Below, one piece after another: positions 2,139-50,860 of a DNA stretch of 64,000 bases (its first letter is position 1; each line of letters begins with the position of its first letter). Both the position numbers and the translations under genes were made by a program. This DNA comes from Pelagomonas calceolata (lineage: Eukaryota), in the NCBI GenBank assembly GCA_918797485.1, contig CAKKNE010000005.1:1984001-2048000 (forward strand), read 5' to 3'. A model generated the notes under the pieces. That model did no database searches. It worked only from the letters and a program-made list of their open reading frames with translations, and had not been told where the DNA came from.

Positions 2139-2343
2139 CGCTCTCGCACGCGTCCCGAGAGCTTCTGAGCGATTGTACTGATGCCTATGGTGGCCCAATA
2201 GCGCTCGTGGAGCACCAATGCGCCACAGGAGCGGGCTAGCGTCGAGAGACACACTAGGATGAACTGACAAGCTTTGCTTTTCGACGTGCCCACGGGTGGG
2301 CAATGCACGATGCAGCATAACTAACAAACGACATTCATCCATC

Positions 2344-5300
2344 ATGCGCCTCGCGAACGGTGGGCTGGAGCTGGAAGGCCTAGCCCTGCCATTAAAGGGA
2401 GGCAGCCTGAGGATAGAAACGCTGCGAGTCGGCTTGCTAAGCGTGCACGTCCGGGGCGTGCGCCTGAAAACAGCGCTCCCGAACGCGACGAAAAGCAATG
2501 GCCTCGCGAAACCGTTGCGACGGCTCGCCGCGCGATTGGTACAGGTGTCCGTCGAGGGCCCAATCGAGGTGACCATCACCGCAAAAGACGGCGAGATCAC
2601 AGCGAAAGCAATCAATTGTCGGATAGAACACCAGACCCTGCGCGCGCCCGCCGTCTCCATTAGTTTCGAGGGCGCCGAGGCGTCGCTGAGGGAGCTCACC
2701 GTCTCGGCGGACGGCGCGAGCGCCTCCGAGCTGACGGCGACGGCGTCCGCGGCAGGTGTCGAGCGCGCCAAGGCGCTCGTCTCCACCAGAGCCGCGCCGC
2801 CGGGACAACAACTGCCCTGGGCCTCGCTCGCGCTCGTGGCTGCTCTATTAGCGTGGCGGCCTTTGATGGGTGTGGTGGTCGCGGCGCTCTGGGCGCTTTC
2901 AGTATATATGGAGGAACAACCCTCGTCAAAAAAGCCGTATGAATTAGGCGCCGCGCGCGTCGCTGTCACTCTGGGTCATCTATCAGCGACGGCCACGAAG
3001 CTGCGCGTGTCCGGTCACAAAGTGCGGGCCGACGCCGCGACGGTTATGCTACAATCGGATGGCGACGAGGTCCTTTGCGTGCGGGCGATGGACGTCCGAG
3101 CCGAGGGTTTGAGTATTGAGTGCGAGGCGCTGAACGCGACCCTGGACCCGCGCGCATTTCCGAGAGACGACGCCCAACGACAGGGCGCTTGGAGGGTTGA
3201 GCTCGCTGTAAAGAAGAGTGTGGAGACGGTCTTTGTCAAGGCCGATTGCAGTGGCACCGTCGTGCGCCGCGCATTGTTAACAGCAGCAACCAGCTCGGCG
3301 CTCGTCGAACCGGGTTCGATACAATTGAATCTGGCCGCGCTGTGTGTGAATGACGGCGACGGCCGCAACCAGGTACGGGGAAGTTCAATAGCGTTCCGAC
3401 GACGAAAGGCTGAGATAGCAGTGCAACTAAACGGCGGAAACGTCGCCTACGAGCACCGCTTTGTCGCCGACGTGCTGCGGTGGTTCCACGCGGCCCGCAC
3501 TGTGTCCAATGACCCCGCGCCTTCGTTAAAAGTGGACTGTAGCGACGTCGATTTAGTGGTACCGGAGTCGATGGAACGGCGGGGCGCGGCCACCTTCTCA
3601 ATACAAACTCTAAAGGCGCGGCGCGGCGACAAAGATATTCACGTAGAGGCGGACTGTCGCTTGAAATGTCTAGACGACGAGTGCGCTCATTTACCTGATC
3701 TAAACGTGCGAATTGTGAAAAATCGCGTCGACGTGGCGCTGGCGCGGGACGCTCTAGCTCTGCGACTGACGCGCGCGCAGTACGCTTGCTTAGTAGGCTT
3801 GTTTTTTGGGAACGTGGGGGACGACCACGGCGACGGCGCGTCCGAAAAATGGTGGCCCGAGACGGATTCTACAGAAACACAGTTTCCGCAGGATTGGTAC
3901 GAAAGCGGCACGGCGCCCCACGCCCTCGCGAAGACGCTGGGCTTCGCCTGGCGCGTCCGCGTCGCCTGCCCCAATTTGTCAATTGCATTGGTGGATTGTG
4001 GCTGCGCCCTGGAAACGGTTAAGCTACGACTAGACGTGGACCGCGTCGCAAAAGGCGGCGGCTGCGCCTCGGCCTTAGTTCTTGAGACGTTACGCGTCAT
4101 AAACAACGACGACGTGTGGCTCGCCGTTCAGAAGCGAGGAAACGCAGCGTTGAGATACGAGCACCGCACGAACGTCAAATTCACCTGGGCGGGCGTCTTC
4201 CTTGGGAGGCTGGATTTGCGAGCCGTGCCGTCGGACATCTCGTCGTTGTGTGCTTTCTTATGGGGGGGCTTCAAGCGAGCTTCTAGATTAGCTCCCATCA
4301 AAAGGCCGGACGCCGTGAGTCCTCGACGCGAGGCGCATGCCGCTTCATTGGTCGTGGATGTTGTGAATGCGTCCTATACCATCGGCGAGCTCGTTTGTGC
4401 ACTTGACAGAGTCAAGTTTGTGAGAGATGCGTCGTTAACAAGTGGCGAGGCGTCCCTCGAAGGGAGGATCGATTCCATAATAGCGGACGACCGGACCCTC
4501 TCCAAGTCATTTGATGTAGGGTGGAAACGCAAGGCCACGTACGAGGGCGACGTGTGTCAAGCGGAGGCGTCGCTCAAAGTAGATCATATCGATATGTATG
4601 GAGACCGCCACGACCTGAGACGGTGTAGAGATGTCGTAGCGTTACTCAAGCGGCCCCGTCCACCAATTAAGGGAGACGCTCACGCCTGGGCTTTACTGGT
4701 GAATGAAGCGGACGCACCTAATTTGCCGGGACGAACGACCTTCACGGGTGAAGGCTCTATGATCCTCCACGCGTTGCGAGCGGGTGGTAGACGACGCGTG
4801 GCGCGCGGTTTATTGAATTGGAAAGCTCAGGGCGCGGCCGAGACGGATCGCGTCGCGTGTAATGTGGATGTCAAAGTCGAGGCCTCCGCGCGGCCCGAGA
4901 AGAGCTGGGCGCCGGTGCTGGATCGCCACGGTCTTGTTATAGCATTGGAGAGTAGGCACGGCGGCCGCGCGCGGTCTTGTAGAATAGTATCAGCGGAGCC
5001 TTTACATATGTCCTTGGACGTGAAACTCGTCGAGGCCCTGCGGGAGAATGATGATAGACCGGAACGGTGCTGCTCCATTGTGTGTCGGCACCGCATCAAT
5101 TCCAGTAGTTCATTGGACGCGTTCTTGCGGCTGAGTGGCTCTTCTGAGGACTTCGGTGGTACAATACATGTCGAGGCCGACCAGTCGCAAGCCATAGCCC
5201 ATGGCGAGGACTCGGGTGACGAGGATGAGGATGATGATACGCCTTCCATAGTAGTGGACGCGCTCTCAGTAGAAACGGAACATGGTAAGTGGGTCCTGTG

Positions 5301-8300
5301 CGCGGATGATTATGGAGGGGCCGCGCCCGTACTCCTCGAAGGGTCCACGCCACTTCGATTGAGACGTAATGAAGAGGTCGCTTTGTGTTCTGCGACGTGC
5401 GAACGCGTGGGCCCACGGCTCATCTTAACTCTAGCGTCGCGCTTCGCCATCACTAATAGGGGAGACGAAGCACTTGACATACGATGCGGTGGCTTCGAGG
5501 CCACGGTCGGACCTGATAGTACAATACAGCTCCCTTTGATCCCTGAGACAGCAAATCTAGAGGCGCGCCTCACAAAAGATTGGATCGCCTGCGGCCGCGT
5601 CGGTGCATCTAACACTCTTAAAAGATTAGAAGGCGGGTTATGTCGCGGCGGCGCCGACCAACATATCATTCTAAGACCGGCGCTGACCCTTAAAAATGCT
5701 TTACCGTGTGCTATGGCGTGGGAGGCAGCAGTTAACGGTGTCCGCCGGGGGTGTTTACACTCAGCAGAACAGGTATCACTCTACACAACCGCGGAGAAAG
5801 CCACTCTCAGATTGCGGGTGGCCAACTACCAGTGGTCGCGCGGCGTCGCCTTCGACACGAACGCGCTCATCGAGGCCTCCTCCTCTTCTGAGGGAGTCGT
5901 GTCGCGCACCGATCTGATTCTGGACGCCCTCGATGCTAGGGTAGAGAGCGATGATGGCGAGCGCTGGGTCCGCGTCGCGCCGTCGCTACGAGTTACTGTT
6001 TCTGTGGATGCGGCTGGGCTCGTCACATTGCAATGTAGATACGCTCTGGAGAATTTGCTCGAGGCGCCGTGTAGCTACGCGCCCGCCGAGATCCCCGACG
6101 AAAATCAAAGAGTGCTCGCGGTGCAGCAATTAGGCGTGGCGACGGGCTTATCGCGACGGCCGTCTCTTAGTAGGAGGTCGTCCGGGCGGCGCCGCATGCT
6201 GAGCAGCGTGCGCAGCGTCTCGAAAATCGAGGACAAGGAGCCGGACACGCCCCGCATCGAGGTAACTTTGAGGAGAGCGGCGCACCACGAACGATTTATA
6301 CATATACAAGCGAAGACGGCGCGCGAGGCCGTCCGCAAGGTCATACCTGATTATAGCGACGAGTACGACGTGGTCGGCGAGGACACGCATCCCATGGATC
6401 TGGACGCGCCCCTCCTCGAACCTCGTACTTTATACTTGAGACATCGATTGGAGAGGGCCCTCGCGCAGCAGGATGCTTTGGATCTAGACCAGCTCTACCC
6501 GAGCGAGGCGGCGGCGGCGGCGGCCGTGGCCGTGCCCTGGAGTGGTGCGATGCCCTGGGACCCCGTCGCGGGCGGGCCTCGAAGGCACGGGCCCCAGTTA
6601 GCAGTGAGAGCGGTTCTCGTGCACGGCCCGGCGCCTTCTAGAGGTGAAGCTACTGCGAGGATTCGCGTCGACGGGTGCTCGGAATGGTCCGCTCCACTCG
6701 TACTACCTACAAGGTACGATAACAAGTTGGAGGGCACGGCATTAAGGTACGACGACGACGATGCGGAGGCGGCCGACGGCGCTTCTACTCGTTTACAGTT
6801 ACGGGCGCCGGAGCGTTCCCAGAGGAGACCGGTCTATGATTTGAGTTTACGAGTAGAAGCTTGTAGCGACTACGTTGGCGTGGTGTTAACACCGAAGCTG
6901 TCGTTCCGCAACCATACGGACGGCGTGTTAGAGGTAAGGCAGGCGGGCGTTGATGTGGATAGACCCTTGCTGGAGTTGCAACCGACGGAAACGGGCCAGG
7001 TGATCGCGTGGAGCGACGAGCAGGGCCCTCGATTGGTACAATTACGTCTACGGAATAGTGAGGATGCTATACTGAAGAGCGGTGCTCTGAGAGCTGATTG
7101 TTTGGTGGGCCGGGGCGAGACGGTCTTTGCCGCGTTCAATAATGACCATGAAGTCCACCTGCGGTTACGACGAGAAGCGAGGTCATTTACCGATGACGAC
7201 GGCAATGAACTCTCTGATACAAGTATAGAAACTTTATGTATCGTGGAAGAGAGTGATGCAAGGTGGCCGCCCTACCGGTTGGTGAACAAGACCGACATTA
7301 AGCTGAGGTACCGCCAACGATTGGCCAAGCAGAACTTCCCGAAAGAGGTTGCGGACTTTGACGGTGAACTTTCAACAGTAAAAGACACTACATTTACGTT
7401 AGCTTCCCTGAATCATGCCTCCAAACCGAGAGGACCGCGTCCACTCATCGTGCAGCCGCGCAACGACCAGAAGAAGCAGGGCTTGAAGGTGACAGGTAAC
7501 GACGACGAGGCCCCCGACGACGAGATCGGAAACGCGCAGAAATTCGTCAAGCAGTCGTCCATGAGTACGGAGCTGGAGCGGGCCGCGTCCAGTATGTCTT
7601 CCGCCGTGTTTGGGAGTACGTCGAAGCCTCCTACGTCGGCTTCTGATGCCTTGGAACGAGGTGTTAAGTACTTGGGCAAAAAAGCGCGATCCGGTGCGCG
7701 GAAAGTCGGTCTATTGGAAGCGAAACGCGCGGAACAGCGCATCGGGCCCTGGCGGCAGCTGGAACCTGGTGACAGTGCATCGTACGCGTGGGAGCGGCCC
7801 TTGGATGCCGTCGGGTCGTCTACTCGGAGTCAGCGACGAGTGTTAATTGTGGAAGGCTACACCGATAAGGGCTGGACGCAGAGGGTGCAGGTGGCTTTAG
7901 ATGAAGCACAAGGAGAGCTCAAAGGCGACCTACCTTGTGTCGTGAAGGCGGACGGTCCCACTCGAGTGCTAGAGTTCGGTACTAAAGCAACGGATATAAT
8001 CAGACCCGACCTCTCGGCGACGGAGGACGGCGGCGACCGGTTAGTCGCGCACGCGGCGGAGCTCGGGGCGTCTATTTTGATCAGAGGCCTCGACGATAAA
8101 CCGAGGGAACTCGTGAAAATAACGCTCTGCGACGCGCGGGCCGCCTGGACCTGCCTCGAGCAGGGCGGCGTCAACGCCGAGTTCTCGATCCACCACGTGC
8201 AGGTGGACAACTTGCTGAGCCCGAGACCGCTGTACGCGGCGGCTCTAAGGCCGCGATTAGGCGAGGACGACTCGCCTTGTCTAGCCGCATCTGTCAGAAG

Positions 8301-10632
8301 AAGGACCGACACGGATCTCACTACCATACAACACGCCGTCACGTATCTGGATCGCTTTGTGGTGCGTGCTAGGCCTCTCGATGTCCACTTGGACCATGAA
8401 GTAGCGGCTCTCTTAGTAGCTTTATATGCGGACTGTTCGCGGAGCACGGACGACGATATTGAACTCCAATCCACACTTGTGAAAACAACTACTACACAAC
8501 GGCGCAGACGCGAGGTTTCGCGGTTGGTACAACAGCGAAAACGGCCGGCCGTGTTTTGTGCTCAAGTGAGATTGCACCCCGTCGACGCCCGCGTCACGCT
8601 GAAAGGTGGCCTGACACCTTTAACGAGGAAAGAAGTAGCAAGAGCTTGCGGGAACACTTCAGTAGATGCCGTATCAGCGGCCGTCGGCCAGCTCGACACC
8701 GCGCAATTGAAAGTCGACGCTCTGTACCTCGACGATGCATTAGCGCGGACGGCGGAAGGATTGGGTAGGCGGGTCGCGAGGCACTACCTCCAAACGTTAC
8801 TCAAGCAGGCGCATCGGGTTTGTGGAAGTCTCGATATTGTACGAGCGCCGATGTCCGCGGCGTCGTCGCTAGGCGGCGGCGTCATGGATTTAGTATATCA
8901 ACCAGTACAAGGAGCGTCGACGGGCGGCGCCTCGGGTCTGGCTTCCGGTGTTGCGCGCGGAAGTGCTTCGGCCGTCGGCGGCGCGTTCGACGCCGCGACC
9001 GGAGTTGTGTCGTCGGTCACGGCCTCTACCGGTTCCGCGTTGGCTGCCCTGACGATGGACTCGTCCTACCAGACGAGCAGAGCGACAAGACGAGCCCAGG
9101 AGGCGAACAAGGCCCGCGGAGCTTCAGGAAGCTCCACTACCTTAGCCGATAGCGTCCAAAAACATTCCAAGGTCGCCGCGGAGGTTGTTAGGGGTGCCCA
9201 GGACTTAGGTGGAGGCATCTTCGAGGGCGTGACGGGTATTGTGGTGGAGCCGTACAAATCGATCTCGCGCGGAGATGACGCTATTGATGTTGCCAAAGCC
9301 ACCGCGCGCGGATTAGTAGGAGTAGCGATAAAACCAGCCGTCGGTGTGGTGGATATGACGACGCGAGCGGTCGAGGGCGTCCGGACCGCCGGGAAATACG
9401 CGAACGACTCCTTCCAATCGGCGGTGTCCGCGTCGTTAGCGGCGAAGAAGTTGAAAAGGAGATCATCTCTATCGGAGGCGCCGTGGCGTAGAAAAGCTCG
9501 TCTAGATCCGCACTGCCCCTGGTCTCGGTTGTCGCATTCGCGCATGGTTTTGAGTGGTAGTTCGTTCCGCATGCTCGATAGCGAAGCGGCCGAGGCCCAG
9601 CAGTGTTTGCGGCTGACGTCGGATAGCGACGAGCGCCACGCTTTAGCACTGAAATACGGCGCGGCGTTGGACAACTTTGGGGACGTCCGCTGGTTCGGGC
9701 AACGGACGCATAGCATCGAGTACTGTTCCGATGACGACGGTGATGAGGACACTTCTGGCAACCAACGAAGGAAGGCCCGCACGCGTGTCACCCGAAGGTG
9801 GGTCCTCGCGTCCTCTACCAGTTTACAGTACGTCCAGGACCTTGCAGCTGATGATGATCGTAGATGTAGAATCGTCTGGGAGGCGCCTTTGTCAGATATT
9901 GTTGGTGTCGAAAGTGGATCGGACGACGACGACGATGTGAGAGTCGTGTTCGGTGTGCCCGTCGACGAAACACCCAGGAAATGGTGCAAGCGCCACATCC
10001 CCGACCAGAAGAGCAGGGTGTCATGTGTGGTGGGTCTGGAGGTGGCCTGCTTACTGAGAGATGGGTCTGCTTCTCTACCGAGAAGGGCCGCTCCCAACAA
10101 AGCTTTGGTTTCTGACGGCGCGACCTATATCTCAAATCCGCAGAAAGGTGCAAAAAGATCCAAGAGGAGATTAGTATTGAGGGGCGGCTGCCTCTACGCG
10201 TATCGAGACGTCAATAAGAGTCTCGCCGGCAGGGACACTCCAGAGCTGTCGCGAGCTTTGATCTTGCGGGACACCTTCGTCGAGCCCGTCTCCCGGCGCG
10301 CAAATCCGCCCGCTGCGCTACGCCCGGACGAGCGCGACCGCGCGTTACTCTTATTACCGACGGAGGCGCCGAAACTCAGAGCCGTGCGCGTGCGCGCGGC
10401 GTCGGGCGCGTACCTCACGAACGTTTTGGATGACGAGAAACTCGAGCAGGTCTGCCTGCTGTTTGAAAGTGGATCGGACGCGTCCATGTGGCTTGAGGCG
10501 CTGCGCGGCGCCGCGGCGCCTTCACCACTATCGCCGCCGCCGGGCGACGCCGTCGCGCTTTCGTTGGACTGCGCGGGCGTGCCGCGCGACGCGCGGCGGC
10601 TCCTCGCGGCGCGGCTCCGGCGCGGGCTCTAG
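2344..10632 (+). CDS. VPS13: VPS13-like bulk lipid transfer protein (VAB/SHR-BD region, VPS13_C/ATG2_C-like helices, C-terminal PH-like domain)
   Basis: About 2760 aa uninterrupted. Motifs PPYRLVNKT, VKADGPTRVL, IHHVQVDNLL, RHYLQTLLKQAHRVCGSLD, GLVGVAIKPAVGVVD. PH-like RRLVLRGGCLYAY...WLEALR. Confidence 0.8.
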   Translation: MRLANGGLELEGLALPLKGGSLRIETLRVGLLSVHVRGVRLKTALPNATKSNGLAKPLRRLAARLVQVSVEGPIEVTITAKDGEITAKAINCRIEHQTLRAPAVSISFEGAEASLRELTVSADGASASELTATASAAGVERAKALVSTRAAPPGQQLPWASLALVAALLAWRPLMGVVVAALWALSVYMEEQPSSKKPYELGAARVAVTLGHLSATATKLRVSGHKVRADAATVMLQSDGDEVLCVRAMDVRAEGLSIECEALNATLDPRAFPRDDAQRQGAWRVELAVKKSVETVFVKADCSGTVVRRALLTAATSSALVEPGSIQLNLAALCVNDGDGRNQVRGSSIAFRRRKAEIAVQLNGGNVAYEHRFVADVLRWFHAARTVSNDPAPSLKVDCSDVDLVVPESMERRGAATFSIQTLKARRGDKDIHVEADCRLKCLDDECAHLPDLNVRIVKNRVDVALARDALALRLTRAQYACLVGLFFGNVGDDHGDGASEKWWPETDSTETQFPQDWYESGTAPHALAKTLGFAWRVRVACPNLSIALVDCGCALETVKLRLDVDRVAKGGGCASALVLETLRVINNDDVWLAVQKRGNAALRYEHRTNVKFTWAGVFLGRLDLRAVPSDISSLCAFLWGGFKRASRLAPIKRPDAVSPRREAHAASLVVDVVNASYTIGELVCALDRVKFVRDASLTSGEASLEGRIDSIIADDRTLSKSFDVGWKRKATYEGDVCQAEASLKVDHIDMYGDRHDLRRCRDVVALLKRPRPPIKGDAHAWALLVNEADAPNLPGRTTFTGEGSMILHALRAGGRRRVARGLLNWKAQGAAETDRVACNVDVKVEASARPEKSWAPVLDRHGLVIALESRHGGRARSCRIVSAEPLHMSLDVKLVEALRENDDRPERCCSIVCRHRINSSSSLDAFLRLSGSSEDFGGTIHVEADQSQAIAHGEDSGDEDEDDDTPSIVVDALSVETEHGKWVLCADDYGGAAPVLLEGSTPLRLRRNEEVALCSATCERVGPRLILTLASRFAITNRGDEALDIRCGGFEATVGPDSTIQLPLIPETANLEARLTKDWIACGRVGASNTLKRLEGGLCRGGADQHIILRPALTLKNALPCAMAWEAAVNGVRRGCLHSAEQVSLYTTAEKATLRLRVANYQWSRGVAFDTNALIEASSSSEGVVSRTDLILDALDARVESDDGERWVRVAPSLRVTVSVDAAGLVTLQCRYALENLLEAPCSYAPAEIPDENQRVLAVQQLGVATGLSRRPSLSRRSSGRRRMLSSVRSVSKIEDKEPDTPRIEVTLRRAAHHERFIHIQAKTAREAVRKVIPDYSDEYDVVGEDTHPMDLDAPLLEPRTLYLRHRLERALAQQDALDLDQLYPSEAAAAAAVAVPWSGAMPWDPVAGGPRRHGPQLAVRAVLVHGPAPSRGEATARIRVDGCSEWSAPLVLPTRYDNKLEGTALRYDDDDAEAADGASTRLQLRAPERSQRRPVYDLSLRVEACSDYVGVVLTPKLSFRNHTDGVLEVRQAGVDVDRPLLELQPTETGQVIAWSDEQGPRLVQLRLRNSEDAILKSGALRADCLVGRGETVFAAFNNDHEVHLRLRREARSFTDDDGNELSDTSIETLCIVEESDARWPPYRLVNKTDIKLRYRQRLAKQNFPKEVADFDGELSTVKDTTFTLASLNHASKPRGPRPLIVQPRNDQKKQGLKVTGNDDEAPDDEIGNAQKFVKQSSMSTELERAASSMSSAVFGSTSKPPTSASDALERGVKYLGKKARSGARKVGLLEAKRAEQRIGPWRQLEPGDSASYAWERPLDAVGSSTRSQRRVLIVEGYTDKGWTQRVQVALDEAQGELKGDLPCVVKADGPTRVLEFGTKATDIIRPDLSATEDGGDRLVAHAAELGASILIRGLDDKPRELVKITLCDARAAWTCLEQGGVNAEFSIHHVQVDNLLSPRPLYAAALRPRLGEDDSPCLAASVRRRTDTDLTTIQHAVTYLDRFVVRARPLDVHLDHEVAALLVALYADCSRSTDDDIELQSTLVKTTTTQRRRREVSRLVQQRKRPAVFCAQVRLHPVDARVTLKGGLTPLTRKEVARACGNTSVDAVSAAVGQLDTAQLKVDALYLDDALARTAEGLGRRVARHYLQTLLKQAHRVCGSLDIVRAPMSAASSLGGGVMDLVYQPVQGASTGGASGLASGVARGSASAVGGAFDAATGVVSSVTASTGSALAALTMDSSYQTSRATRRAQEANKARGASGSSTTLADSVQKHSKVAAEVVRGAQDLGGGIFEGVTGIVVEPYKSISRGDDAIDVAKATARGLVGVAIKPAVGVVDMTTRAVEGVRTAGKYANDSFQSAVSASLAAKKLKRRSSLSEAPWRRKARLDPHCPWSRLSHSRMVLSGSSFRMLDSEAAEAQQCLRLTSDSDERHALALKYGAALDNFGDVRWFGQRTHSIEYCSDDDGDEDTSGNQRRKARTRVTRRWVLASSTSLQYVQDLAADDDRRCRIVWEAPLSDIVGVESGSDDDDDVRVVFGVPVDETPRKWCKRHIPDQKSRVSCVVGLEVACLLRDGSASLPRRAAPNKALVSDGATYISNPQKGAKRSKRRLVLRGGCLYAYRDVNKSLAGRDTPELSRALILRDTFVEPVSRRANPPAALRPDERDRALLLLPTEAPKLRAVRVRAASGAYLTNVLDDEKLEQVCLLFESGSDASMWLEALRGAAAPSPLSPPPGDAVALSLDCAGVPRDARRLLAARLRRGL

Positions 10633-14357: not shown

Positions 14358-16040
14358 ATGGAGGCCGTAGAGCTGCCTCCGGTAGGCATGTCCTGGGCCC
14401 GCGCGGGGCTGCCCGCGCTGGGCCCGCCGCCGCTGAAGAAGGGTCGGTCGCGCCAGGAGCTGATGCAGCGCGAAGCCGAGTTCCAGCGCCGGCGCGGCGC
14501 GGCGCCGGCCCGCGGCCGGCGCCAGCCCCTCGACCCGCTGGCGGAGAGCCGGCGGCGGCCCGACGCGCAGGAGCGCCCCCCGGCGATGGGCCTCGACGGC
14601 TTCGAACGGCCGGACGCCGAGGGCGGCGCCGAGCCGCCCGCCGAGCCGCAGCGGCTCGCGGCGCTGCCGGCGCTGCCGGCGCTCGCCGGCGCGCAGCGCA
14701 GCACGAAGCGCCGCCGCGCGGCGAAGCTGCGGCGGCCGCTGCCGGCCGCGTCGCCGCCGCCGCGCGGGACGCTGCGCGCCAGCGAGAGCGCCTTCGACCT
14801 CGCGCGCGGCGCGCTGCCGGCCGTCGACCCCCTCGACGCGCCCCGCGCCGCGCGCAAGCCGGTCACCGATATGGACGACCCGCGCATCGAGGCGGCCCTG
14901 CGGCGGCTCGAGGGCGACGTGCCTCGACCTGATGCGGAGGAGCGGCCACCAGCCATGGGTTTGGATGGGTTCGAACCGCCCGAGGCGGAGAGGCTGCGCT
15001 TCTCCGAGGCCGATACTGCGTTCAGGCGGCCCGACGCGGAGGAGCGGCCGCCGGCCATGGGCCTGGAGGGCTTCGAGCCGCCGGCCAAGGACTCATTGGT
15101 TGGCCCGGACACGCTAGAACGGAGCGCGACGCTCATGTGCACGCCGAAGCGCCCCGCGGCGCCGCCGCGCGGCACGCGGTCTTTAAGGAGACTCCAGCAC
15201 GCGAATTCACTAAGACGAGAAAAGTCGAAGAAGCTCACCGGCGAGCTCGCGAAGGCGATCTTCAGTCCCGAGAAGCCGCAGAAGCCCATGCCCACGGATT
15301 TGCAATTAGTCTGGCAGGATACTTTTGATTACGAAGGGGCGCCGCATCCGGCGCGGTGGCAATTCCAGTGCGAAGCCAACGACTGGGTCCACGACGCGCA
15401 GCACGGCGAGCGCCAGTGGTACACGGACTCGGTACGGAACTGCCACGTGCGGAACGGGAAATTGCGGATCATCGCGCGGCGCGAGCGGTCGAACTCGTGC
15501 AAGTACACGTCGGCGCGATTGCGCACGAAATATAGAGGAGACTGGTTGTACGGCCGGGTCGAAGTGCGCGCGAGGCTGCCGCCCTCGAAAAGAGGTTTGT
15601 GGCCGGCGATCTGGTTATTACCTACGGATGAAGTGTATGGGGGCTGGCCGCATTCCGGCGAGATCGACGTCATGGAGCACGTGGGCTGGGAGAAGAACGG
15701 TTTGATCCACTCGGCCTGCCATTCGACGCGCCACAACCCGACCGTGGGTCGCCAGCGGTCGAAAGCCAAATTAATTTCAACAGCCCATCGGAAGTTCCAC
15801 GTCTACGCCGTCGACTGGCAGCCGACGCGCATCTCGATTTTCGTGGACAACGAGCTCGTCTTAAAAGTAGACGACAAGGGCTTCGGGGCTCAGTCGTGGC
15901 CCTACGACCAGCGTTTTCATTTATTACTGAACCTGGCGGTCGGCGGGTGGGGCGGCATGAAGGGAATCGATGACCGGGCCTTCCCGGCGTGTTTCAAAGT
16001 GGACTCCGTGCGCGTGTTCCAGAAGCGGGGCGGGCGCTAG
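14358..16040 (+). CDS. Glycoside hydrolase family 16 (laminarinase-like beta-1,3-glucanase) with repetitive N-terminal extension
   Basis: Motifs LVWQDTFD, YTSARL, GRVEVRARLP, WPAIWLLP, catalytic GEIDVME, FHVYAVDW, LLLNLAVGG, VDSVRVFQ. Confidence 0.9.
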   Translation: MEAVELPPVGMSWARAGLPALGPPPLKKGRSRQELMQREAEFQRRRGAAPARGRRQPLDPLAESRRRPDAQERPPAMGLDGFERPDAEGGAEPPAEPQRLAALPALPALAGAQRSTKRRRAAKLRRPLPAASPPPRGTLRASESAFDLARGALPAVDPLDAPRAARKPVTDMDDPRIEAALRRLEGDVPRPDAEERPPAMGLDGFEPPEAERLRFSEADTAFRRPDAEERPPAMGLEGFEPPAKDSLVGPDTLERSATLMCTPKRPAAPPRGTRSLRRLQHANSLRREKSKKLTGELAKAIFSPEKPQKPMPTDLQLVWQDTFDYEGAPHPARWQFQCEANDWVHDAQHGERQWYTDSVRNCHVRNGKLRIIARRERSNSCKYTSARLRTKYRGDWLYGRVEVRARLPPSKRGLWPAIWLLPTDEVYGGWPHSGEIDVMEHVGWEKNGLIHSACHSTRHNPTVGRQRSKAKLISTAHRKFHVYAVDWQPTRISIFVDNELVLKVDDKGFGAQSWPYDQRFHLLLNLAVGGWGGMKGIDDRAFPACFKVDSVRVFQKRGGR

Positions 16041-19390: not shown

Positions 19391-19584
19391 TTCCAATGTG
19401 TTTACATGACTTTCACGAGTGGCTCACGCGTTACCCACGGGTCAGTTAGGTACAGACATATCGCAAACATGATAAATTAACACTCAGAAGGCGTCGCTCA
19501 GTTGCGGTAAGCCGGGCTGAAACCTGTTTTTTTTCACCCTTTCAACGCGGACGCCGCGACCCTCACAGACCCCGCCAACGCAAG

Positions 19585-20715
19585 ATGATCCTCACAAACT
19601 GCGCCGCCTGCGCCGCCCCACTGGCCCACAACGCGCCGCGATGCGTTAGATGTCACACGAGATATTGTAACAAGACTTGCCAGCATGACCACTGGCGCCG
19701 CGGCCACAAGCAGATGTGTAAGAAAATACACCGCGGCGGCAACGCAGAACAGTATAATGCCGACAAAAAATACAAGGAGGCCGTCGCGGTCGCGGTCGAG
19801 GCATGCGCGGACGACACGAAGGGCCAGACGTGCTACATCTGCACGCAAGCCCTCCATTGGAAAACGAAGGAGGGCCTCGTGCGCGGTTGCGCGTGCCGCG
19901 GGACTTCGGGCGTCGCGCACGTGTCGTGCCTGGCGGAGCAGGTGAAGATCTTGGTCGCGGAGGCGGAGGAGAACAATTTGGACGTCAAGGTTTTGCAGGC
20001 GAGGTGGGATCGGTGGCACACGTGTAGCCTGTGCGAGCAAGAGTATCACGGCATCGTGCGATGCGCGCTCGGTTGGGCGTGCTGGAAGACGAACGTGGGC
20101 CGGCCGGAGACGGATCGGCTCCATGGCACGGCGATGAACCTGCTTGGGGGCGGTTTATACGCCGCAAGACACCGCGAGGACGCGTTGTCCGTGCAAGAGG
20201 CCGAGTTGGCTATGCGGCGGCGCATTGGCGCGGCAGAAGAAATCATTCTCGCCGTGCAGAGCAATCTTGCGGTCACGTATGACGCGCTCGGGCGGTTCGA
20301 GACAGCCTTACAGATGAAGCGAGACGTACACTCTGGAACCTTGAAGCTATATGGCGAAGAAAGCATCCACACGCTCACACAAGCCAGCAACTACGCGGCG
20401 TCCTTTATCGCTCTACGACGCTTCGCAGAAGCCAAGCCACTGTTTCGAAAGACGATCCCCGTGGCGCGGCGCGTTCTCGGGGAGAGTCATGAGAACACGC
20501 TCAAGATGAGATTGGGTTACGCGGCGGCGATCTATTTCGACGCCGGCGCCACCCTCGACGATCTCCGCGAGGCCGTGACGACGCTAGAGGAGCTGGTTAT
20601 AATCGCACGGCGCGTGTACGGTGGCGCGCACCCGCTGACAGCGAGGATTGAGGGCGACTTGCGAAACGCGCGAGCCGCGCTCCGCGCCCGCGAAACGCCG
20701 CCGAGGAGCGCGTAA
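19585..20715 (+). CDS. MYND zinc finger + RING-CH-like finger + TPR (kinesin-light-chain-like) protein
   Basis: MYND: CAAC...CVRCHTRYCNKTCQHDHWRRGHKQMC. RING-CH-like: CYIC...CACRG...HVSCL...CSLC. TPR-like repeats RRVLGESHENTL. Confidence 0.85.
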   Translation: MILTNCAACAAPLAHNAPRCVRCHTRYCNKTCQHDHWRRGHKQMCKKIHRGGNAEQYNADKKYKEAVAVAVEACADDTKGQTCYICTQALHWKTKEGLVRGCACRGTSGVAHVSCLAEQVKILVAEAEENNLDVKVLQARWDRWHTCSLCEQEYHGIVRCALGWACWKTNVGRPETDRLHGTAMNLLGGGLYAARHREDALSVQEAELAMRRRIGAAEEIILAVQSNLAVTYDALGRFETALQMKRDVHSGTLKLYGEESIHTLTQASNYAASFIALRRFAEAKPLFRKTIPVARRVLGESHENTLKMRLGYAAAIYFDAGATLDDLREAVTTLEELVIIARRVYGGAHPLTARIEGDLRNARAALRARETPPRSA

Positions 20716-37954: not shown

Positions 37955-39640
37955 TTACCCAACGTCCATCGGCGCCGCCTCGGCATCGGGCGTCGGAAGT
38001 TCGCCCTCGGCCCGTCTAGGAGTGACCATCTCGCTCCGCCGCTGCGCCTCGCGCGCCAGCTCCGCCTTGTGCTGCAGTTTGGGAGCATACCCGTCGGGCA
38101 CGTAAGAAGACGGATCTGGTTCTTTTTCGCGCATCTCCTGGATTTTGAGGGCCATGGGCTCGCACACTTTACAAGCGTGCTTGTGCTCCCTGAAATGCTG
38201 ACGTTGGCACTCCCGCGAGCAGTATTTGGCCACTTTACATCTCGAGCACCTATCAAACCTTACGTCGTCCGTTTCTACGTTTGGACATTGCGCGCACTTA
38301 CATCGCGACGCTTCCGGATCAATAGCGTCTCGCAGTTCTCGTGGTAGGTCGATGCACTTCGGGCCCCTCACCTTATAATTGTCGATGGCTTCTTGCAAAG
38401 ATTCGACCGCGGTCGTGACGTCTGGATGAGTTTTACATCGAGCGTAGCCGCACCAGACCTCGTAGTAAATCAACGAAGCTTGGCCTAAATGGTGAATGGC
38501 CGGCGAGAACAACCGACCGTCCCGACAAATACGCCCAACCGCGTAGTGCATCTGCGCCGTCGCCGTCGAGATCCGCCCGTACTTCAACTCGGCCGCTCTT
38601 AACGCTTCGCAAGCGTGTCTCAAGGCTTGCACGAGTTTCTTAGCTTGTTTTGGGAGAAGTGCGTGATTGGCGCACTCCCGCAACTCCCTATACTGCGACC
38701 CGGGTTCGCCTAAGGCCGCCACCGCTAATAAACCGGCGCAGTCGTGGTGGCACGTCGCCAATCTACCAAGATCACCTAGAGTCGTTAACTGCCCGATGGC
38801 CCTTTCATAAATGTCAATGGCGCCCTCGGGGTCGCCCATGGCAGCTGTTGCCGATGCTAAATGCTGCGTCGCCTCCGCTTGTAGTAATTGTGAAGTATAT
38901 CGCATGGACGGGTCCCGCGCACTGAGCCAAGGTAATGATACTTCCCCCTCGAGCTTCACATCCATCAGGTCCTCGCACTTCCGCCGCGCGTGCCGCGCCA
39001 GGCCCTTGTAGTTCGGTAGGTCGTACAAGTCCTCAAACGCGTACAATTGCAACAACAGCAAAGACACGACCTCAGGAGCCTGGCGTCCAAACAGTGTGAT
39101 GGCGGGCTCCACACAAATTTCCAACGACGTCCAGCACTGCTTATGCAGTTCTAGGGAGGACACTAAGTTGCGATACGCACAAGCCTTCATGCAGATATGA
39201 GCGATCCATTCCAAATCGCTTCGATGTCTCGCGTCGTTGACGGACCAGACCGGCGGCGCGTCGCCGTTGCGGATTTGTTGCAGCGTAGCTTTGTTCGCGT
39301 CGCCATAATCCTTGTAAGGTTCGGACTGGCAAATAACATCGTGCAGGTCCTTGGCCGCCTTTTCCAGCTTCTTTGCTTCTTTACGGGCGGGCCGCGCCAA
39401 TAACACTTCATGCAACGGCAGCACCTCGGCCTCCTCATGACCGGGAAAGCGCACCGCTACACTCTCGTCCTGCGGGTCGTGCGCCACGACGCCTCTTCTA
39501 GAACCGTAATGAATGATGGCGCCCTTCCGTATGCCCGTATCATCGATGTCATCAGGATATTGGGCCTTGACCTCGTCGTTGTCCGTGATTAGTAATTCAG
39601 AGAGGACCTCCCCTTGTAGAGCTTCCTGCTGGGCCGCCAT
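37955..39640 (-). CDS. TPR-like helical protein with C-terminal MYND zinc finger
   Basis: CAQC...CSRCKVAKYCSRECQRQHFREHKHAC, preceded by TPR-like helices. Confidence 0.8.
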   Translation of the reverse strand: MAAQQEALQGEVLSELLITDNDEVKAQYPDDIDDTGIRKGAIIHYGSRRGVVAHDPQDESVAVRFPGHEEAEVLPLHEVLLARPARKEAKKLEKAAKDLHDVICQSEPYKDYGDANKATLQQIRNGDAPPVWSVNDARHRSDLEWIAHICMKACAYRNLVSSLELHKQCWTSLEICVEPAITLFGRQAPEVVSLLLLQLYAFEDLYDLPNYKGLARHARRKCEDLMDVKLEGEVSLPWLSARDPSMRYTSQLLQAEATQHLASATAAMGDPEGAIDIYERAIGQLTTLGDLGRLATCHHDCAGLLAVAALGEPGSQYRELRECANHALLPKQAKKLVQALRHACEALRAAELKYGRISTATAQMHYAVGRICRDGRLFSPAIHHLGQASLIYYEVWCGYARCKTHPDVTTAVESLQEAIDNYKVRGPKCIDLPRELRDAIDPEASRCKCAQCPNVETDDVRFDRCSRCKVAKYCSRECQRQHFREHKHACKVCEPMALKIQEMREKEPDPSSYVPDGYAPKLQHKAELAREAQRRSEMVTPRRAEGELPTPDAEAAPMDVG

Positions 39641-39964
39641 GGGTGGGCGGGCTGCCCGCGCGCGCGCGGCGATGCGTCTATGGCTGGGCGAGCTCGCCCT
39701 TGCGACGGGCGACGCGTTGGTGGCGTATCAGCGCCCGATTTTTGTGAAGCGCCAACGATAAGGCGCTAGCGTCCCGTAAGACACTAGCAATTTCCAAGCC
39801 ACCAAGCAAGCCAAGCGCAACTCCGCACCGCGGTGTGCCCGACCACGTCGGGGCAGCCCCAATCAAGACAGGCACCCGCCCCCCGGCGCCCGTCCACGTT
39901 TCAGGAGAAGTGGTGGACCGTAGGGACACTTATCCAGCCACCCCAGATTAGTGAAGGGAGAGCC

Positions 39965-41188
39965 ATGTTCCTCACGAAATGCGCCGCCTGCGCCGCCGAC
40001 TGCACGACAGTAAAAGCGTGCAGCAGGTGCCAGACGGTCTACTGTTCGGTACAATGCCAGAAGACGCACTGGGAGAGCGGCCACGACAAGCTCTGCAAAA
40101 TGATCAAGAAAAAAGGCGGCGCCGAGCAGCTCTATGCTGATAAACAATATAAAGCATCAATCAAGCTAGCCGTAGAAAAATGCGCAAAGGACGCCCGGTC
40201 GCAAGCTCTACTTAACGCGGCCAAGCAGTTAGGTGATTTATCCTTTTGTGACATGGAAGAGAGGAAGCGCTTCCTGGAGTTAAGTGCGGAGGACGCCGAG
40301 ATCGAGGAAGACGAGGTCACTTGTTATATTTGTTTGGATTCAATACATAGTGAGACGAAGGAAGGAGTAGTGAGGGGCTGCGGCTGCAAGGGATCGCAAG
40401 GCCATGCCCATGTCACGTGCTTAGCGAAACAAGCGCAATTATCCGTCGAGGAGGGCGAAACTATGAATGCCGACGACATGTCTGCAAGGTGGAGCAAGTG
40501 GACTCGGTGTGGGATATGCGAGCAGAACTACCGTAGTCTTGTATCATGCGCTCTAGGATGGGCCTGCTGGCGGACCTACGTCCAAAGACCCATGGAGGCG
40601 CCGGCGAAGCGCGCGGCTCTCACAACATTAGGATCTGGACTGATGGACGGCGACCGGGCTGGAGAAGCGCTGACCGTTTTTCAAGCGCAATTAAAACATG
40701 CCTACAAGGAACAGGACGAGGAGTCGATCACGGCGGCCAAGGGGAACTGCGCCATGTGCCTGTCCAACTTGGGGCGAGACGCCGAGGCGGTCGTGATTAA
40801 TCGGGAGTTGTACGCGCAGATACGAAAAGCGAGCGGTCTCGAGGACATCGATACGTTGGTGGCTGCGTTAACGCTGGCCAAGTCATTAAGAGCGTTGTCG
40901 TCTTTTTCTGAAGCTAGAGCATTGTTGCGCGAGGTCGTGCCGGTCGCGATGACATCACTAGGCGGCGACCACGGCGTGACGTTGGAACTCAACTCGAATT
41001 TCGTCCGGGCCATGTGCATGGACCTGAACGCGACGGCGGACCAGTTGAAAGCTGCCGTTGATTTAGCACATTCCACTCACGAGGCCGCGTTGCGTCGCTA
41101 CGGCGACGGCCACGAGCTTACTCACTTGTGTCGCGCGTCGTTGGCCGACGCGCGGGTCGTGGCGCAGAACGCGGGGCTAGAGAGGTAA
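39965..41188 (+). CDS. MYND + RING-CH-like + TPR protein (paralog of 19585..20715)
   Basis: Motifs MFLTKCAACAA, CSRCQTVYCSVQCQKTHW, TCYIC...KEGVVRGCGC...AHVTCLA, ALGWACW, matching the 19585 gene. Confidence 0.85.
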   Translation: MFLTKCAACAADCTTVKACSRCQTVYCSVQCQKTHWESGHDKLCKMIKKKGGAEQLYADKQYKASIKLAVEKCAKDARSQALLNAAKQLGDLSFCDMEERKRFLELSAEDAEIEEDEVTCYICLDSIHSETKEGVVRGCGCKGSQGHAHVTCLAKQAQLSVEEGETMNADDMSARWSKWTRCGICEQNYRSLVSCALGWACWRTYVQRPMEAPAKRAALTTLGSGLMDGDRAGEALTVFQAQLKHAYKEQDEESITAAKGNCAMCLSNLGRDAEAVVINRELYAQIRKASGLEDIDTLVAALTLAKSLRALSSFSEARALLREVVPVAMTSLGGDHGVTLELNSNFVRAMCMDLNATADQLKAAVDLAHSTHEAALRRYGDGHELTHLCRASLADARVVAQNAGLER

Positions 41189-49764: not shown

Positions 49765-50033
49765 GGCTAATTCGTAATTGCTGCGGCTGCAATGCCACCT
49801 GCATGCAGCGTCTCCGTCGCCGGCTGCGGTGCTCGCTGCGCGGCGTCGTCGTGATGTACTGCGAGCGTGACGACGACAGCTTGCCGATCGCTTCTTGCAG
49901 CGGTGCCTGGAGTCGACGTGAGGTGGCTCCAATCAAATCGCTCGACAACACACCTAGCGTTAAAGACCACTAGAAAATTTTTAACAGTACTTATATGCGT
50001 GCGTAAAACACAACCCGAGCGCATGCGTCGTCG

Positions 50034-50094
50034 CGGCCGTATTTCAACGCCGCGGCGGAAACGAAGTCCCGCCGCGGCGCGTCATCGACGGCCG
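50034..50094 (-). promoter_or_regulatory. Eukaryotic SECIS element
   Basis: Minus strand: CGGCCGT-CG-ATGAC-GCGCCGCGGCGG-GACTTCGTTT-CCGCCGCGGCGT-TGAA-AT-ACGGCCG. This gives a 7-bp helix I, an AUGA/GA tandem G.A core and a 12-bp helix II, about 70 nt after the TAA. Confidence 0.85.
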
Positions 50095-50161
50095 ACAGGG
50101 GCCAGGGGCCGTGCGGGGCCCATGAACACAAAAACAACGACGAGCGCCTCGAGTAGCGCAC

Positions 50162-50860
50162 TTAGAGTTCGTCCGTGACGGCGGCCCAATGCATCTGATC
50201 GAGTAGCTTCCGCCGCGCCTTCATCCACGATAGTACGTCGGAGCTGAGCTTGGATTGGTCGCCGGCCAGCATCTTGTCGATGCGAGCCATCTGCGACGCG
50301 TAGTCCTCCCGCGTCTTTCCGGTCCACTTTGCGATGTAGGTCTTCTGCTTGTCGGAGCACCCTTGGCCGTCTAACGAACAGAGGGAAGTGGAGGCCGCCT
50401 TCTCGACGTAGGCGAACATGTTATCCTCATCTTTGAGCTCCTCGCACATGGCCTTATCTGTTACCTTTTCATAAGGGGCGCCCCCTGGACCGGTATCAGA
50501 GTTGAAATATCGTATGGTCGGCCAGCCGCCCGCGCCCGGGTTAAATTGAACGCCGTGCCGCTCCCTGATCGGGTTCTCTGACAGATTGACGTCCCCGAAC
50601 ACCACATCCTTATTATCCTTGAACGCCGAGAGGGCCGCACCCCAACCCGACGACTGCTTGACTCATCAGCCTCAGCCCTCCGACGCGATCCAGCGGACCA
50701 TCGCCGTCTTACCCGCACTCAGAGCGTCATTGATGAAGGAGTCAAACGTAGCATCTGTGAGCTTCACGTACTGGGCGCCGTTGCTGAGGTCTGGGTAGGC
50801 GCCACCGGCATTTGTGGTGCCCAGCGCCAGCGCTAGCGCTGTGGTTCGGAGGAGCGCCAT
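50162..50860 (-). CDS. ER thioredoxin/PDI-like selenoprotein with GUGUU motif (three Sec; 232 aa)
   Basis: Signal peptide, then VKLTDATFD..VRWIASEG-TGA-GGC-TGA-TGA-VKQSSGW..VVFGDVNL..GWPTIRYF, ending in TDEL. Track ORFs 50672..50860 and 50162..50605 are in the same frame. SECIS downstream. Confidence 0.9.

What the first reader, a model, noticed from the sequence alone, without database searches (positions are those of the whole stretch)
50162..50860. Hidden triple-selenocysteine (G-U-G-U-U) PDI/thioredoxin-like protein split by the ORF caller
Seen: the 62-aa ORF (50860-50672) and the 147-aa ORF (50605-50162) are one frame interrupted only by TGA-GGC-TGA-TGA (codons 63, 65, 66; + strand tca at 50672, 50666, 50663). 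These fall exactly where the WCGHC/CxxC site of a thioredoxin fold lies: after VKLTDATFD..VRWIASEG and before VFGDVNL and the cis-Pro loop GWPTIRYF. The product has a signal peptide and ends in TDEL. Established: UGA plus a 3' SECIS encodes Sec, and pelagophyte algae are selenoprotein-rich. Inference: a UxxU-type site with an extra adjacent Sec needs three UGA recodings within four codons, including two consecutive ones, from apparently one SECIS, which is mechanistically and chemically unusual. From memory, a GUGUU PDI-like family (PDI_e) was predicted in an algal selenoproteome survey, so the family may not be new; I know of no biochemical characterisation.
Basis: partly seen in the sequence, partly recalled or inferred. 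Interest (0 to 1): 0.92.

Follow-up and report, generated by a model that had tools for sequence, protein, structure and literature searches.

The report
Triple-selenocysteine ER redox enzyme gene
An expressed, intronless eukaryotic gene carries three in-frame UGA 'stop' codons, two of them back to back, at the active site of a predicted endoplasmic-reticulum redox protein; they are likely read as selenocysteine, which makes it a new member of the already predicted but untested algal PDI_e family.

Summary
One frame (50860-50162, minus strand) is open except for TGA at codons 63, 65 and 66 (G-U-G-U-U), in register with the C-G-H-C site of PDI. Stranded poly(A) reads cover the codons 46-93-fold with no splice, indel or edit. 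All 80 of 80 related loci examined, picked on downstream peptides, keep TGA-GGN-TGA-TGA. A Corethron homologue has Cys at all three places. The only strict SECIS-pattern hit in the 64-kb window lies in this 3' UTR.

The family is known from prediction: PDI_e (Jiang 2020), tied here through its Fistulifera homologue. I found no biochemical test in the papers searched.

Features not in the main text of that paper: an ERp29/Wind-type a-D architecture that keeps residues matching ERp29's calreticulin/calnexin-binding surface; a SECIS with GGA where AA is usual; no GGU before the first and second UGA (0 of 116 codons); and an SRE-like hairpin after the UGAs in part of the family (weak in this gene).

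Sec insertion, ER location and activity are inferred. Verdict: new member of a known kind, and a good test case for consecutive UGA recoding.

The parts
50162..50860 (-). Intronless coding sequence, 232 aa if UGA63/65/66 are read as Sec; TAA stop
50804..50860 (-). Predicted signal peptide (about residues 1-19; cleavage site not computed)
   Evidence: hydropathy; low-pLDDT N-terminus; hydrophobic N-termini in homologues
50456..50773 (-). Thioredoxin-like a domain (about residues 30-135) with the cis-Pro-type loop GGWPT (P114 invariant)
50663..50677 (-). GGC-TGA-GGC-TGA-TGA = G62-U63-G64-U65-U66; U63 and U66 in the CxxC positions, U65 in place of His of CGHC
50622..50654 (-). Possible SRE-like coding hairpin starting about 8 nt after the last UGA; strong in part of the family, weak here (7 Watson-Crick, 10 with G-U, of 13 pairs; z -0.67)
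50174..50389 (-). ERp29/Wind-type all-helical D domain (about residues 158-229); K178, R193 and M197 align with ERp29 K208, R223 and L227
50165..50176 (-). TDEL, KDEL-type ER retrieval signal; most homologues end in xEL
50034..50094 (-). SECIS-like element: helix I, AUGAC (A at 50085) / UGAA core, 11-12 bp helix II, apical GGA with no AA; 76 nt after the stop codon
49986..50910 (-). Approximate transcript span (3' ends at 49986-49987; coverage fades at about 50910)

Best explanation
This is an expressed, unspliced gene of the PDI_e family whose three in-frame UGA codons are likely all decoded as selenocysteine, giving a predicted ER-luminal thioredoxin-plus-D-domain oxidoreductase with a U-G-U-U active site. 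Shown: the frame, the transcript, the conservation of the three TGAs, the SECIS-like hairpin inside the mRNA, and purifying selection on both halves. Inferred: (1) the single 3' UTR SECIS, probably helped by local codon context and in some lineages a hairpin just after the UGAs, supports three Sec insertions within four codons; (2) the signal peptide and TDEL keep the protein in the ER; (3) U63 is the attacking selenol and U66 the resolving one, as in CGHC and in the UxxU protein SelL, and U65, which replaces His, most likely lets the very stable Se-Se bond be exchanged or reduced again; (4) the protein acts as a disulfide reductase/isomerase, and its ERp29-type D domain likely docks it on the P-domain of calreticulin or calnexin so that it works on glycoproteins in the folding cycle. 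Steps 1-2 are well supported (about 0.9), step 3 moderately (about 0.65 for a redox enzyme with this pair; the role of U65 is a guess), step 4 is a prediction (about 0.4).
For: No splice, indel or edit at depth 46-93. Residues 67-137 lie between the UGAs and the next in-frame ATG (M138), yet hold 13 of the invariant columns, so they need read-through. dN/dS is low on both sides, e.g. against L001: N-part 0.047/0.546, C-part 0.013/0.349. TGA at all three sites in 80 of 80 loci (the best 80 of 385 confirmed; 58 clusters at 90% identity, 30 at 70%), while the flanking Gly, Ser and Ala codons vary. Real stops are TAA or TAG in 54 of 58 clusters, and all 210 downstream Trp codons are TGG. All-Cys form GCGCC in Corethron pennatum, 42% identical; a WCGHC paralogue has the same layout. 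SECIS pattern in 44 of 76 UTRs (window included) against 12 of 380 shuffles; only strict hit in the 64-kb window; fold z -4.68. Model pLDDT 87; Foldseek hits are ERp46, PDI and thioredoxin domains and full-length Drosophila Wind; Pfam ERp29 C-terminal domain in 8 of 74 members. R193 is kept in 66 of 66 proteins and 57 of 58 locus clusters, K178 in 61 of 66 and M197 in 64 of 66; their ERp29 counterparts K208, R223 and L227 bind the P-domain (PMC7687155 passages).
Against: No protein-level evidence that Sec is inserted. No genome was held, so this organism's Sec machinery was not checked. The SECIS lacks the usual apical AA and matches no Rfam SECIS model, and its covariation among 7 distinct close relatives is not above shuffles (78 of 500). 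26 of 58 clusters gave no SECIS hit with my pattern. Distant homologues that have lost the motif are still kept, in Fistulifera and others, so the fold has a role without Sec. The ERp29 sequence match is weak (profile E 0.13), and ERp29 R226 is mostly Gly here (42 of 66). The four RNA runs are one sample.
Confidence: 0.85

Rival explanations
1. The three Sec are made, but the U-G-U-U site is not a disulfide-exchange centre. It binds a soft metal or reduces peroxides, and the protein works mainly as an ERp29-like chaperone.
For: CxCC-like clusters are typical metal ligands (own knowledge). Motif-less homologues persist (PMC7539508). ERp29 and Wind, the best full-length fold matches, are redox-inactive chaperones.
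Against: U63 and U66 sit exactly in the CxxC register at the start of the helix, and the cis-Pro-type loop is invariant. CGHC and CxxC versions exist in the same family.
Confidence: 0.2
2. The UGA cluster acts mainly as a selenium-sensing gate. Most ribosomes stop at codon 63, and full-length protein is made only when selenium is plentiful.
For: Three recodings in four codons from one SECIS should be inefficient (inference). Synonymous constraint next to the UGAs and a hairpin in some lineages show selection on the decoding step.
Against: The mRNA is well covered along its length in four runs, with no sign of instability. The all-Cys homologue keeps three chalcogen residues, which points to chemistry rather than gating. 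This reading is compatible with the best explanation as an added layer.
Confidence: 0.15
3. The UGAs are read through as Trp or Cys (code change or leaky read-through), not Sec.
For: 27 of 120 database hits are recorded as (G/Q)WGWW.
Against: Those records are gene-caller readings of TGA: three such proteins match loci whose DNA has TGA at 95-100% over 85 residues. True Trp is always TGG downstream, 4 of 58 clusters end on TGA, and a SECIS-like element is present.
Confidence: 0.03
4. Artefact: a pseudogene, two separate ORFs, or an intron or editing event that removes the stops.
For: Databases record the halves separately, and dinoflagellate annotations skip the motif (P0032, P0035, P0064).
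Against: No joints or edits in the reads; 80 of 80 loci conserve the codons; both halves are under purifying selection.
Confidence: 0.01

Closest known systems
PDI_e selenoprotein family (GUGUU), Jiang et al. 2020, PMC7539508 (seen: abstract, outline, passages including the whole PDI_e paragraph; figures and supplement not readable)
   Same: GUGUU motif in a thioredoxin-like fold, 3' SECIS, single-celled eukaryotes; a Fistulifera solaris homologue that lost the motif (38% identical to this protein, E 1e-45), as the paper describes.
   Different: The paper lists 12 genes in 10 algae; here at least 58 clusters at 90% identity. Its main text has no mention of ERp29, signal peptide or endoplasmic, nor, in the passages seen, an all-Cys form, an AA-less SECIS or a downstream hairpin. 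The supplement could not be read and may cover some of this.
ERp29 / Drosophila Wind (b-D) and a-D PDIs such as Chlamydomonas CrPDI-2 (PMC7687155 and PMC3017771, passages)
   Same: One thioredoxin-like domain plus a C-terminal helical D domain and an ER signal; K208, R223 and L227 equivalents kept.
   Different: ERp29 and Wind lack a redox motif; the a-D and a-a-D PDIs are redox-active Cys enzymes (CGHC in the wheat D-domain PDI). This protein has UGUU and three extra invariant Cys (139, 161, 168).
Selenoprotein L (two Sec; diselenide in a redox motif; PMC3473315 passage and reference title; the UxxU label is recalled)
   Same: Two Sec in a thioredoxin-type redox motif, predicted diselenide.
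   Different: No third, adjacent Sec; no homology to this protein was tested.
SELENON Sec redefinition element (PMC6844570, passages)
   Same: Coding-region stem-loop close to the Sec codon, proposed to raise recoding.
   Different: Here it is patchy (13 of 58 clusters with 9 or more of 13 pairs), clustered on the tree, untested, and weak in this gene.

Membership tests
PDI_e (Jiang 2020) | GUGUU motif with three in-frame TGA, two adjacent | tested here: met
PDI_e (Jiang 2020) | Thioredoxin-like (PDI-like) fold around the motif | tested here: met
   no Pfam hit for this sequence itself
PDI_e (Jiang 2020) | Homology to the proteins the paper assigns to the family | tested here: met
   Indirect: Fistulifera solaris motif-less homologue GAX11191.1, 38% identity, E 1e-45. 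The paper's own alignment (Fig. 2a, supplement) could not be seen.
PDI_e (Jiang 2020) | [quoted passage not shown] | tested here: met
   Core UGAC/UGAA and helices I and II present within the transcript; the apical AA is missing and no Rfam SECIS model matches, so it is a non-canonical candidate
PDI_e (Jiang 2020) | Confined to single-celled eukaryotes | tested here: inconclusive
   No viral hit (0 of 19 candidate stretches); 1 of 95 prokaryote stretches, a 44-residue partial match; named relatives are diatoms, dinoflagellates and a chlorarachniophyte; most hits are unnamed
Eukaryotic selenoprotein | Sec/Cys pairing with a homologue | tested here: met
   GCGCC in Corethron pennatum P0193 and two cluster members; their DNA was not seen
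Eukaryotic selenoprotein | Host encodes tRNA-Sec, eEFSec, SBP2, SecS | not testable with these tools
   no genome held; no tRNA-Sec in the window
Eukaryotic selenoprotein | Se incorporated in the protein | not testable with these tools
   needs 75Se labelling or MS
ERp29/Wind (b-D) family | Thioredoxin-like domain plus helical D domain | tested here: met
ERp29/Wind (b-D) family | Redox-inactive N-terminal domain without CxxC | tested here: not met
   UxxU/CxxC-type site present; so it has the ERp29 layout but is not an ERp29
ERp29/Wind (b-D) family | Binding of the calnexin/calreticulin P-domain | not tested

The most novel reading that the evidence does not exclude
PDI_e is a widespread marine-protist selenoenzyme of the calnexin cycle. 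An ERp29-type D domain docks a three-selenium U-G-U-U redox centre on calreticulin or calnexin, and its mRNA uses a dedicated recoding cassette (no GGU before UGA, a hairpin after UGA-UGA, one SECIS that in this lineage works without the apical AA) to insert three Sec in four codons.
Probability: 0.3. Interest if true: 0.8.

Novelty: new member of a known kind. Interest (0 to 1): 0.52.

Why it matters
PDI_e was reported as the first selenoprotein family with two consecutive Sec, from computation alone. Gene callers split, truncate or mis-read it everywhere: none of 120 top database hits carries the motif correctly. This compact, intronless, well-expressed gene with one SECIS is a clean substrate for two open questions: whether a eukaryotic ribosome can insert Sec at back-to-back UGAs from one SECIS, and what a three-selenium thioredoxin site does chemically. 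The natural all-Cys Corethron form gives an easy-to-express comparator. The breadth of the family in marine metagenome and metatranscriptome data suggests an overlooked selenium demand in plankton.

Tried and rejected
Pfam gave nothing for the protein itself. Rfam gave no SECIS match for the window or for 20 loci, so the SECIS call rests on my own pattern with shuffles. A MAFFT alignment of 24 diverse SECIS candidates was too poor for a covariance model; none was built. Covariation of the window-type SECIS among 9 close relatives was not above shuffles. RNAalifold on all clusters gave no consensus hairpin after the UGAs; the hairpin register was chosen from these same data, the strong members cluster on the tree (3 changes against 9.2 shuffled, quick tree), and the window's own hairpin is not significant alone. 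The Fisher p of 8e-13 for GGU avoidance treats related sequences as independent and overstates the evidence. Contigs of four other runs laid at 80% identity list differences at third positions of neighbouring codons but none in the TGAs; that table may be cut, so it is not counted as evidence. The second structural aligner never ran and the protein Atlas search was not obtained, so remote look-alikes rest on Foldseek and HMMER only. The Aureococcus selenium paper (PMC3695291) is not held, so I cannot say whether AA-less SECIS elements are already described for such algae. Literature searches. Of the 12 papers holding 'algal selenoproteomes', I searched two citing ones (PMC13235717, PMC13652914) for PDI and found no mention; the other nine citing papers were seen as listings only.

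Full report
Observation. The minus-strand frame from ATG 50860 to TAA 50162 is open apart from three TGA codons at positions 63, 65 and 66, in SEG-TGA-GGC-TGA-TGA-VKQ. Read through, it gives 232 residues with a hydrophobic N-terminus and C-terminal TDEL. The neighbours are ordinary eukaryotic genes: an eIF5B/IF-2-type GTPase downstream and a divergent CS-domain gene upstream.

Expression. Four stranded poly(A) RNA-seq runs of one sample (6-12% of each read) cover the gene from about 50910 to 49986, where 3' ends pile up in two of the runs. Mean depth over 50626-50682 is 46-93. No joints and no indels are listed, and the three differing letters listed at the 2% threshold lie elsewhere. The TGAs are therefore in the mature mRNA, neither spliced out nor edited.

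Conservation. I searched metagenome contigs with an alignment of the part downstream of the motif only, so the search did not presuppose TGA. Of 486 pattern matches 385 were confirmed and the best 80 returned. All 80 have TGA-GGN-TGA-TGA in frame (79 parsed, L023 read from the printed translation), while neighbouring codons vary synonymously. The 79 parsed loci plus the window fall into 58 clusters at 90% and 30 at 70% identity. Their terminal stops are TAA 27, TAG 27, TGA 4, and all 210 downstream Trp codons are TGG. Both halves show dN far below dS against nine relatives, most clearly for the seven closest; the N-part of the two most distant is weaker. Residues 67-137 precede the next in-frame ATG yet hold 13 invariant columns, so they can only be made by read-through. 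Viruses gave no relative; prokaryote genomes gave one 44-residue partial match.

Protein databases mis-handle the family. Of 120 listed hits (of 326), 92 lack the motif region because they start after it or skip it, 27 read (G/Q)WGWW and one is partial; none has Cys. Three W-type records match loci whose DNA has TGA, so these are code-4 readings. Among the best 150 of 475 representatives, 27 span the site. One, from the diatom Corethron pennatum, has G-C-G-C-C, Cys at all three places, as do its two cluster mates. Others have CxxC-like or no redox residues, including the Fistulifera solaris cluster. A WCGHC paralogue with the same overall layout (31% identity; a cluster mate is from Partenskyella) fixes the register: U63 and U66 are the two Cys of CGHC and U65 replaces His; PDI A6 and A3 alignments agree.

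SECIS. 76 nt after the stop, inside the transcript, lies AUGAC, an 11-12 bp G+C helix, and UGAA, closed by a 7-bp helix I (z -4.68, 0 of 200 shuffles). The core fits the UGAN/KGAW consensus (PMC3753652 passages; PMC2647825 first part of the text). A strict pattern finds it as the only hit on both strands of the 64-kb window. A looser pattern hits 44 of 76 UTRs (window included) against 12 of 380 shuffles; by cluster 27 have one, 5 two, 26 none. The apex has GGA where most have AA, and the eight closest loci with a UTR also lack AA; only the UGA/GA core is described as invariable. Against it: no Rfam SECIS match and no significant covariation among so few close sequences.

Signals around the UGAs. 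GGU is never used for G62 or G64 (0 of 116 codons) but makes up 121 of 503 codons at the other conserved Gly columns and 24 of 119 Gly codons before a TG-codon downstream. The first 15 codons after UGA-UGA fold better than synonymous controls (mean z -1.28 over 58 clusters; -0.21 to 0.21 in eight other windows). The cause is a hairpin of fixed register with a 7-nt loop: 9 of 58 clusters have 10 or more of 13 Watson-Crick pairs against means of 0.3-1.5 in three controls, with G-C/U-A swaps at several pairs. It resembles the SELENON SRE in position (PMC6844570 passages). Limits: the register was picked on these data, the strong members cluster on a quick tree, and the window's copy has 7 Watson-Crick pairs and is not significant alone. 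An earlier AI note on a foraminiferan gene reports a similar hairpin; I saw it after my tests and do not count it as evidence.

Structure. The model (Sec as Cys or Trp in the alignment; pLDDT 87, pTM 0.77) has a thioredoxin fold with the motif at the start of the long helix, followed by a helical domain. Foldseek matches ERp46, PDI and thioredoxin domains and, over the full length, Drosophila Wind (E 2e-5). Pfam's ERp29 C-terminal domain matches 8 of 74 members (best E 8.6e-5). The weak profile alignment to human ERp29 (E 0.13) puts ERp29 K208, R223, R226 and L227 on K178, R193, K196 and M197. A review names these as calnexin/calreticulin P-domain contacts, R223 being essential (PMC7687155 passages). 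R193 is kept in 66 of 66 proteins, K178 in 61 and M197 in 64; position 196 is mostly Gly. An a-D layout is known for Chlamydomonas CrPDI-2 (PMC3017771 passages).

Mechanism. Most likely the ribosome inserts Sec three times within four codons under one SECIS, the protein enters and stays in the ER, U63 and U66 cycle as a selenol/diselenide pair, and U65 helps exchange or re-reduce that very stable bond. The protein would act as a reductase or isomerase, possibly held on lectin chaperones by its D domain. The gene, transcript and conservation are shown; Sec insertion and location are strong inferences; the catalytic roles and the partner are predictions. Rivals are a metal-binding, peroxidase or chaperone role, a selenium-sensing gate, read-through as Trp or Cys, and artefact; the last two are nearly excluded.

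Comparison and verdict. Jiang et al. 2020 (PMC7539508; abstract, outline and passages; supplement unreadable) named PDI_e for this GUGUU motif in 12 genes of 10 algae and noted the Fistulifera loss, which ties this gene to that family. It was the only paper found with GUGUU, selenoprotein and algae together, and searches for consecutive Sec and for citing papers showed no experimental follow-up in the listings or in the two citing papers opened; subscription papers are largely missing from the library. The finding is real and well supported, but it is a new member of a predicted family. Its value lies in being a clean test case and in the added features: D domain, Cys counterpart, AA-less SECIS, and codon and hairpin signals. 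Interest 0.52.

Noticed in passing
window 50663-50677 and L001-L080: GGU is never used for the Gly codons before UGA63 and UGA65 (0 of 116) and GGG is rare at G62 (1 of 58); a guess is selection against slippage or termination during slow Sec decoding.
   Followed up: partly
L025, L027, L029, L037, L038, L043, L047, L052, L058-L062, L067, L080 (tree group with an Effrenium protein): This probably dinoflagellate group keeps the three TGAs but gave few or atypical SECIS hits; it may use a divergent SECIS.
   Followed up: no
L016, L029, L054, L057, L070 3' UTRs: Two SECIS-like hits per UTR; both look canonical (AA apex) in L070.
   Followed up: no
P0032, P0035, P0064 (NCBI Effrenium and Symbiodinium records): The annotated proteins skip nine residues around the motif, probably gene models that avoid the TGAs.
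   Followed up: no
window 50113-50226: RNA depth falls from about 47-81 to 18-35 at the stop codon, and one run has 14 molecule ends at 50175; library bias at the G+C-rich UTR or a shorter SECIS-less isoform cannot be told apart.
   Followed up: no
window residues C139, C161, C168: Three Cys are invariant in all 66 proteins and 58 locus clusters; two may form a structural disulfide at the start of the D domain and one may be free.
   Followed up: no
window 14612-14703 (-): ARAGORN calls a tRNA-Ala(GGC) inside a glycosyl hydrolase 16 reading frame on the other strand; probably spurious.
   Followed up: no
window 2263-10632 (+): A 2789-codon open frame without any Pfam match.
   Followed up: no
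window 19450-20715, 37955-39727, 39788-41188: Three MYND-finger genes, two with TPR repeats.
   Followed up: no
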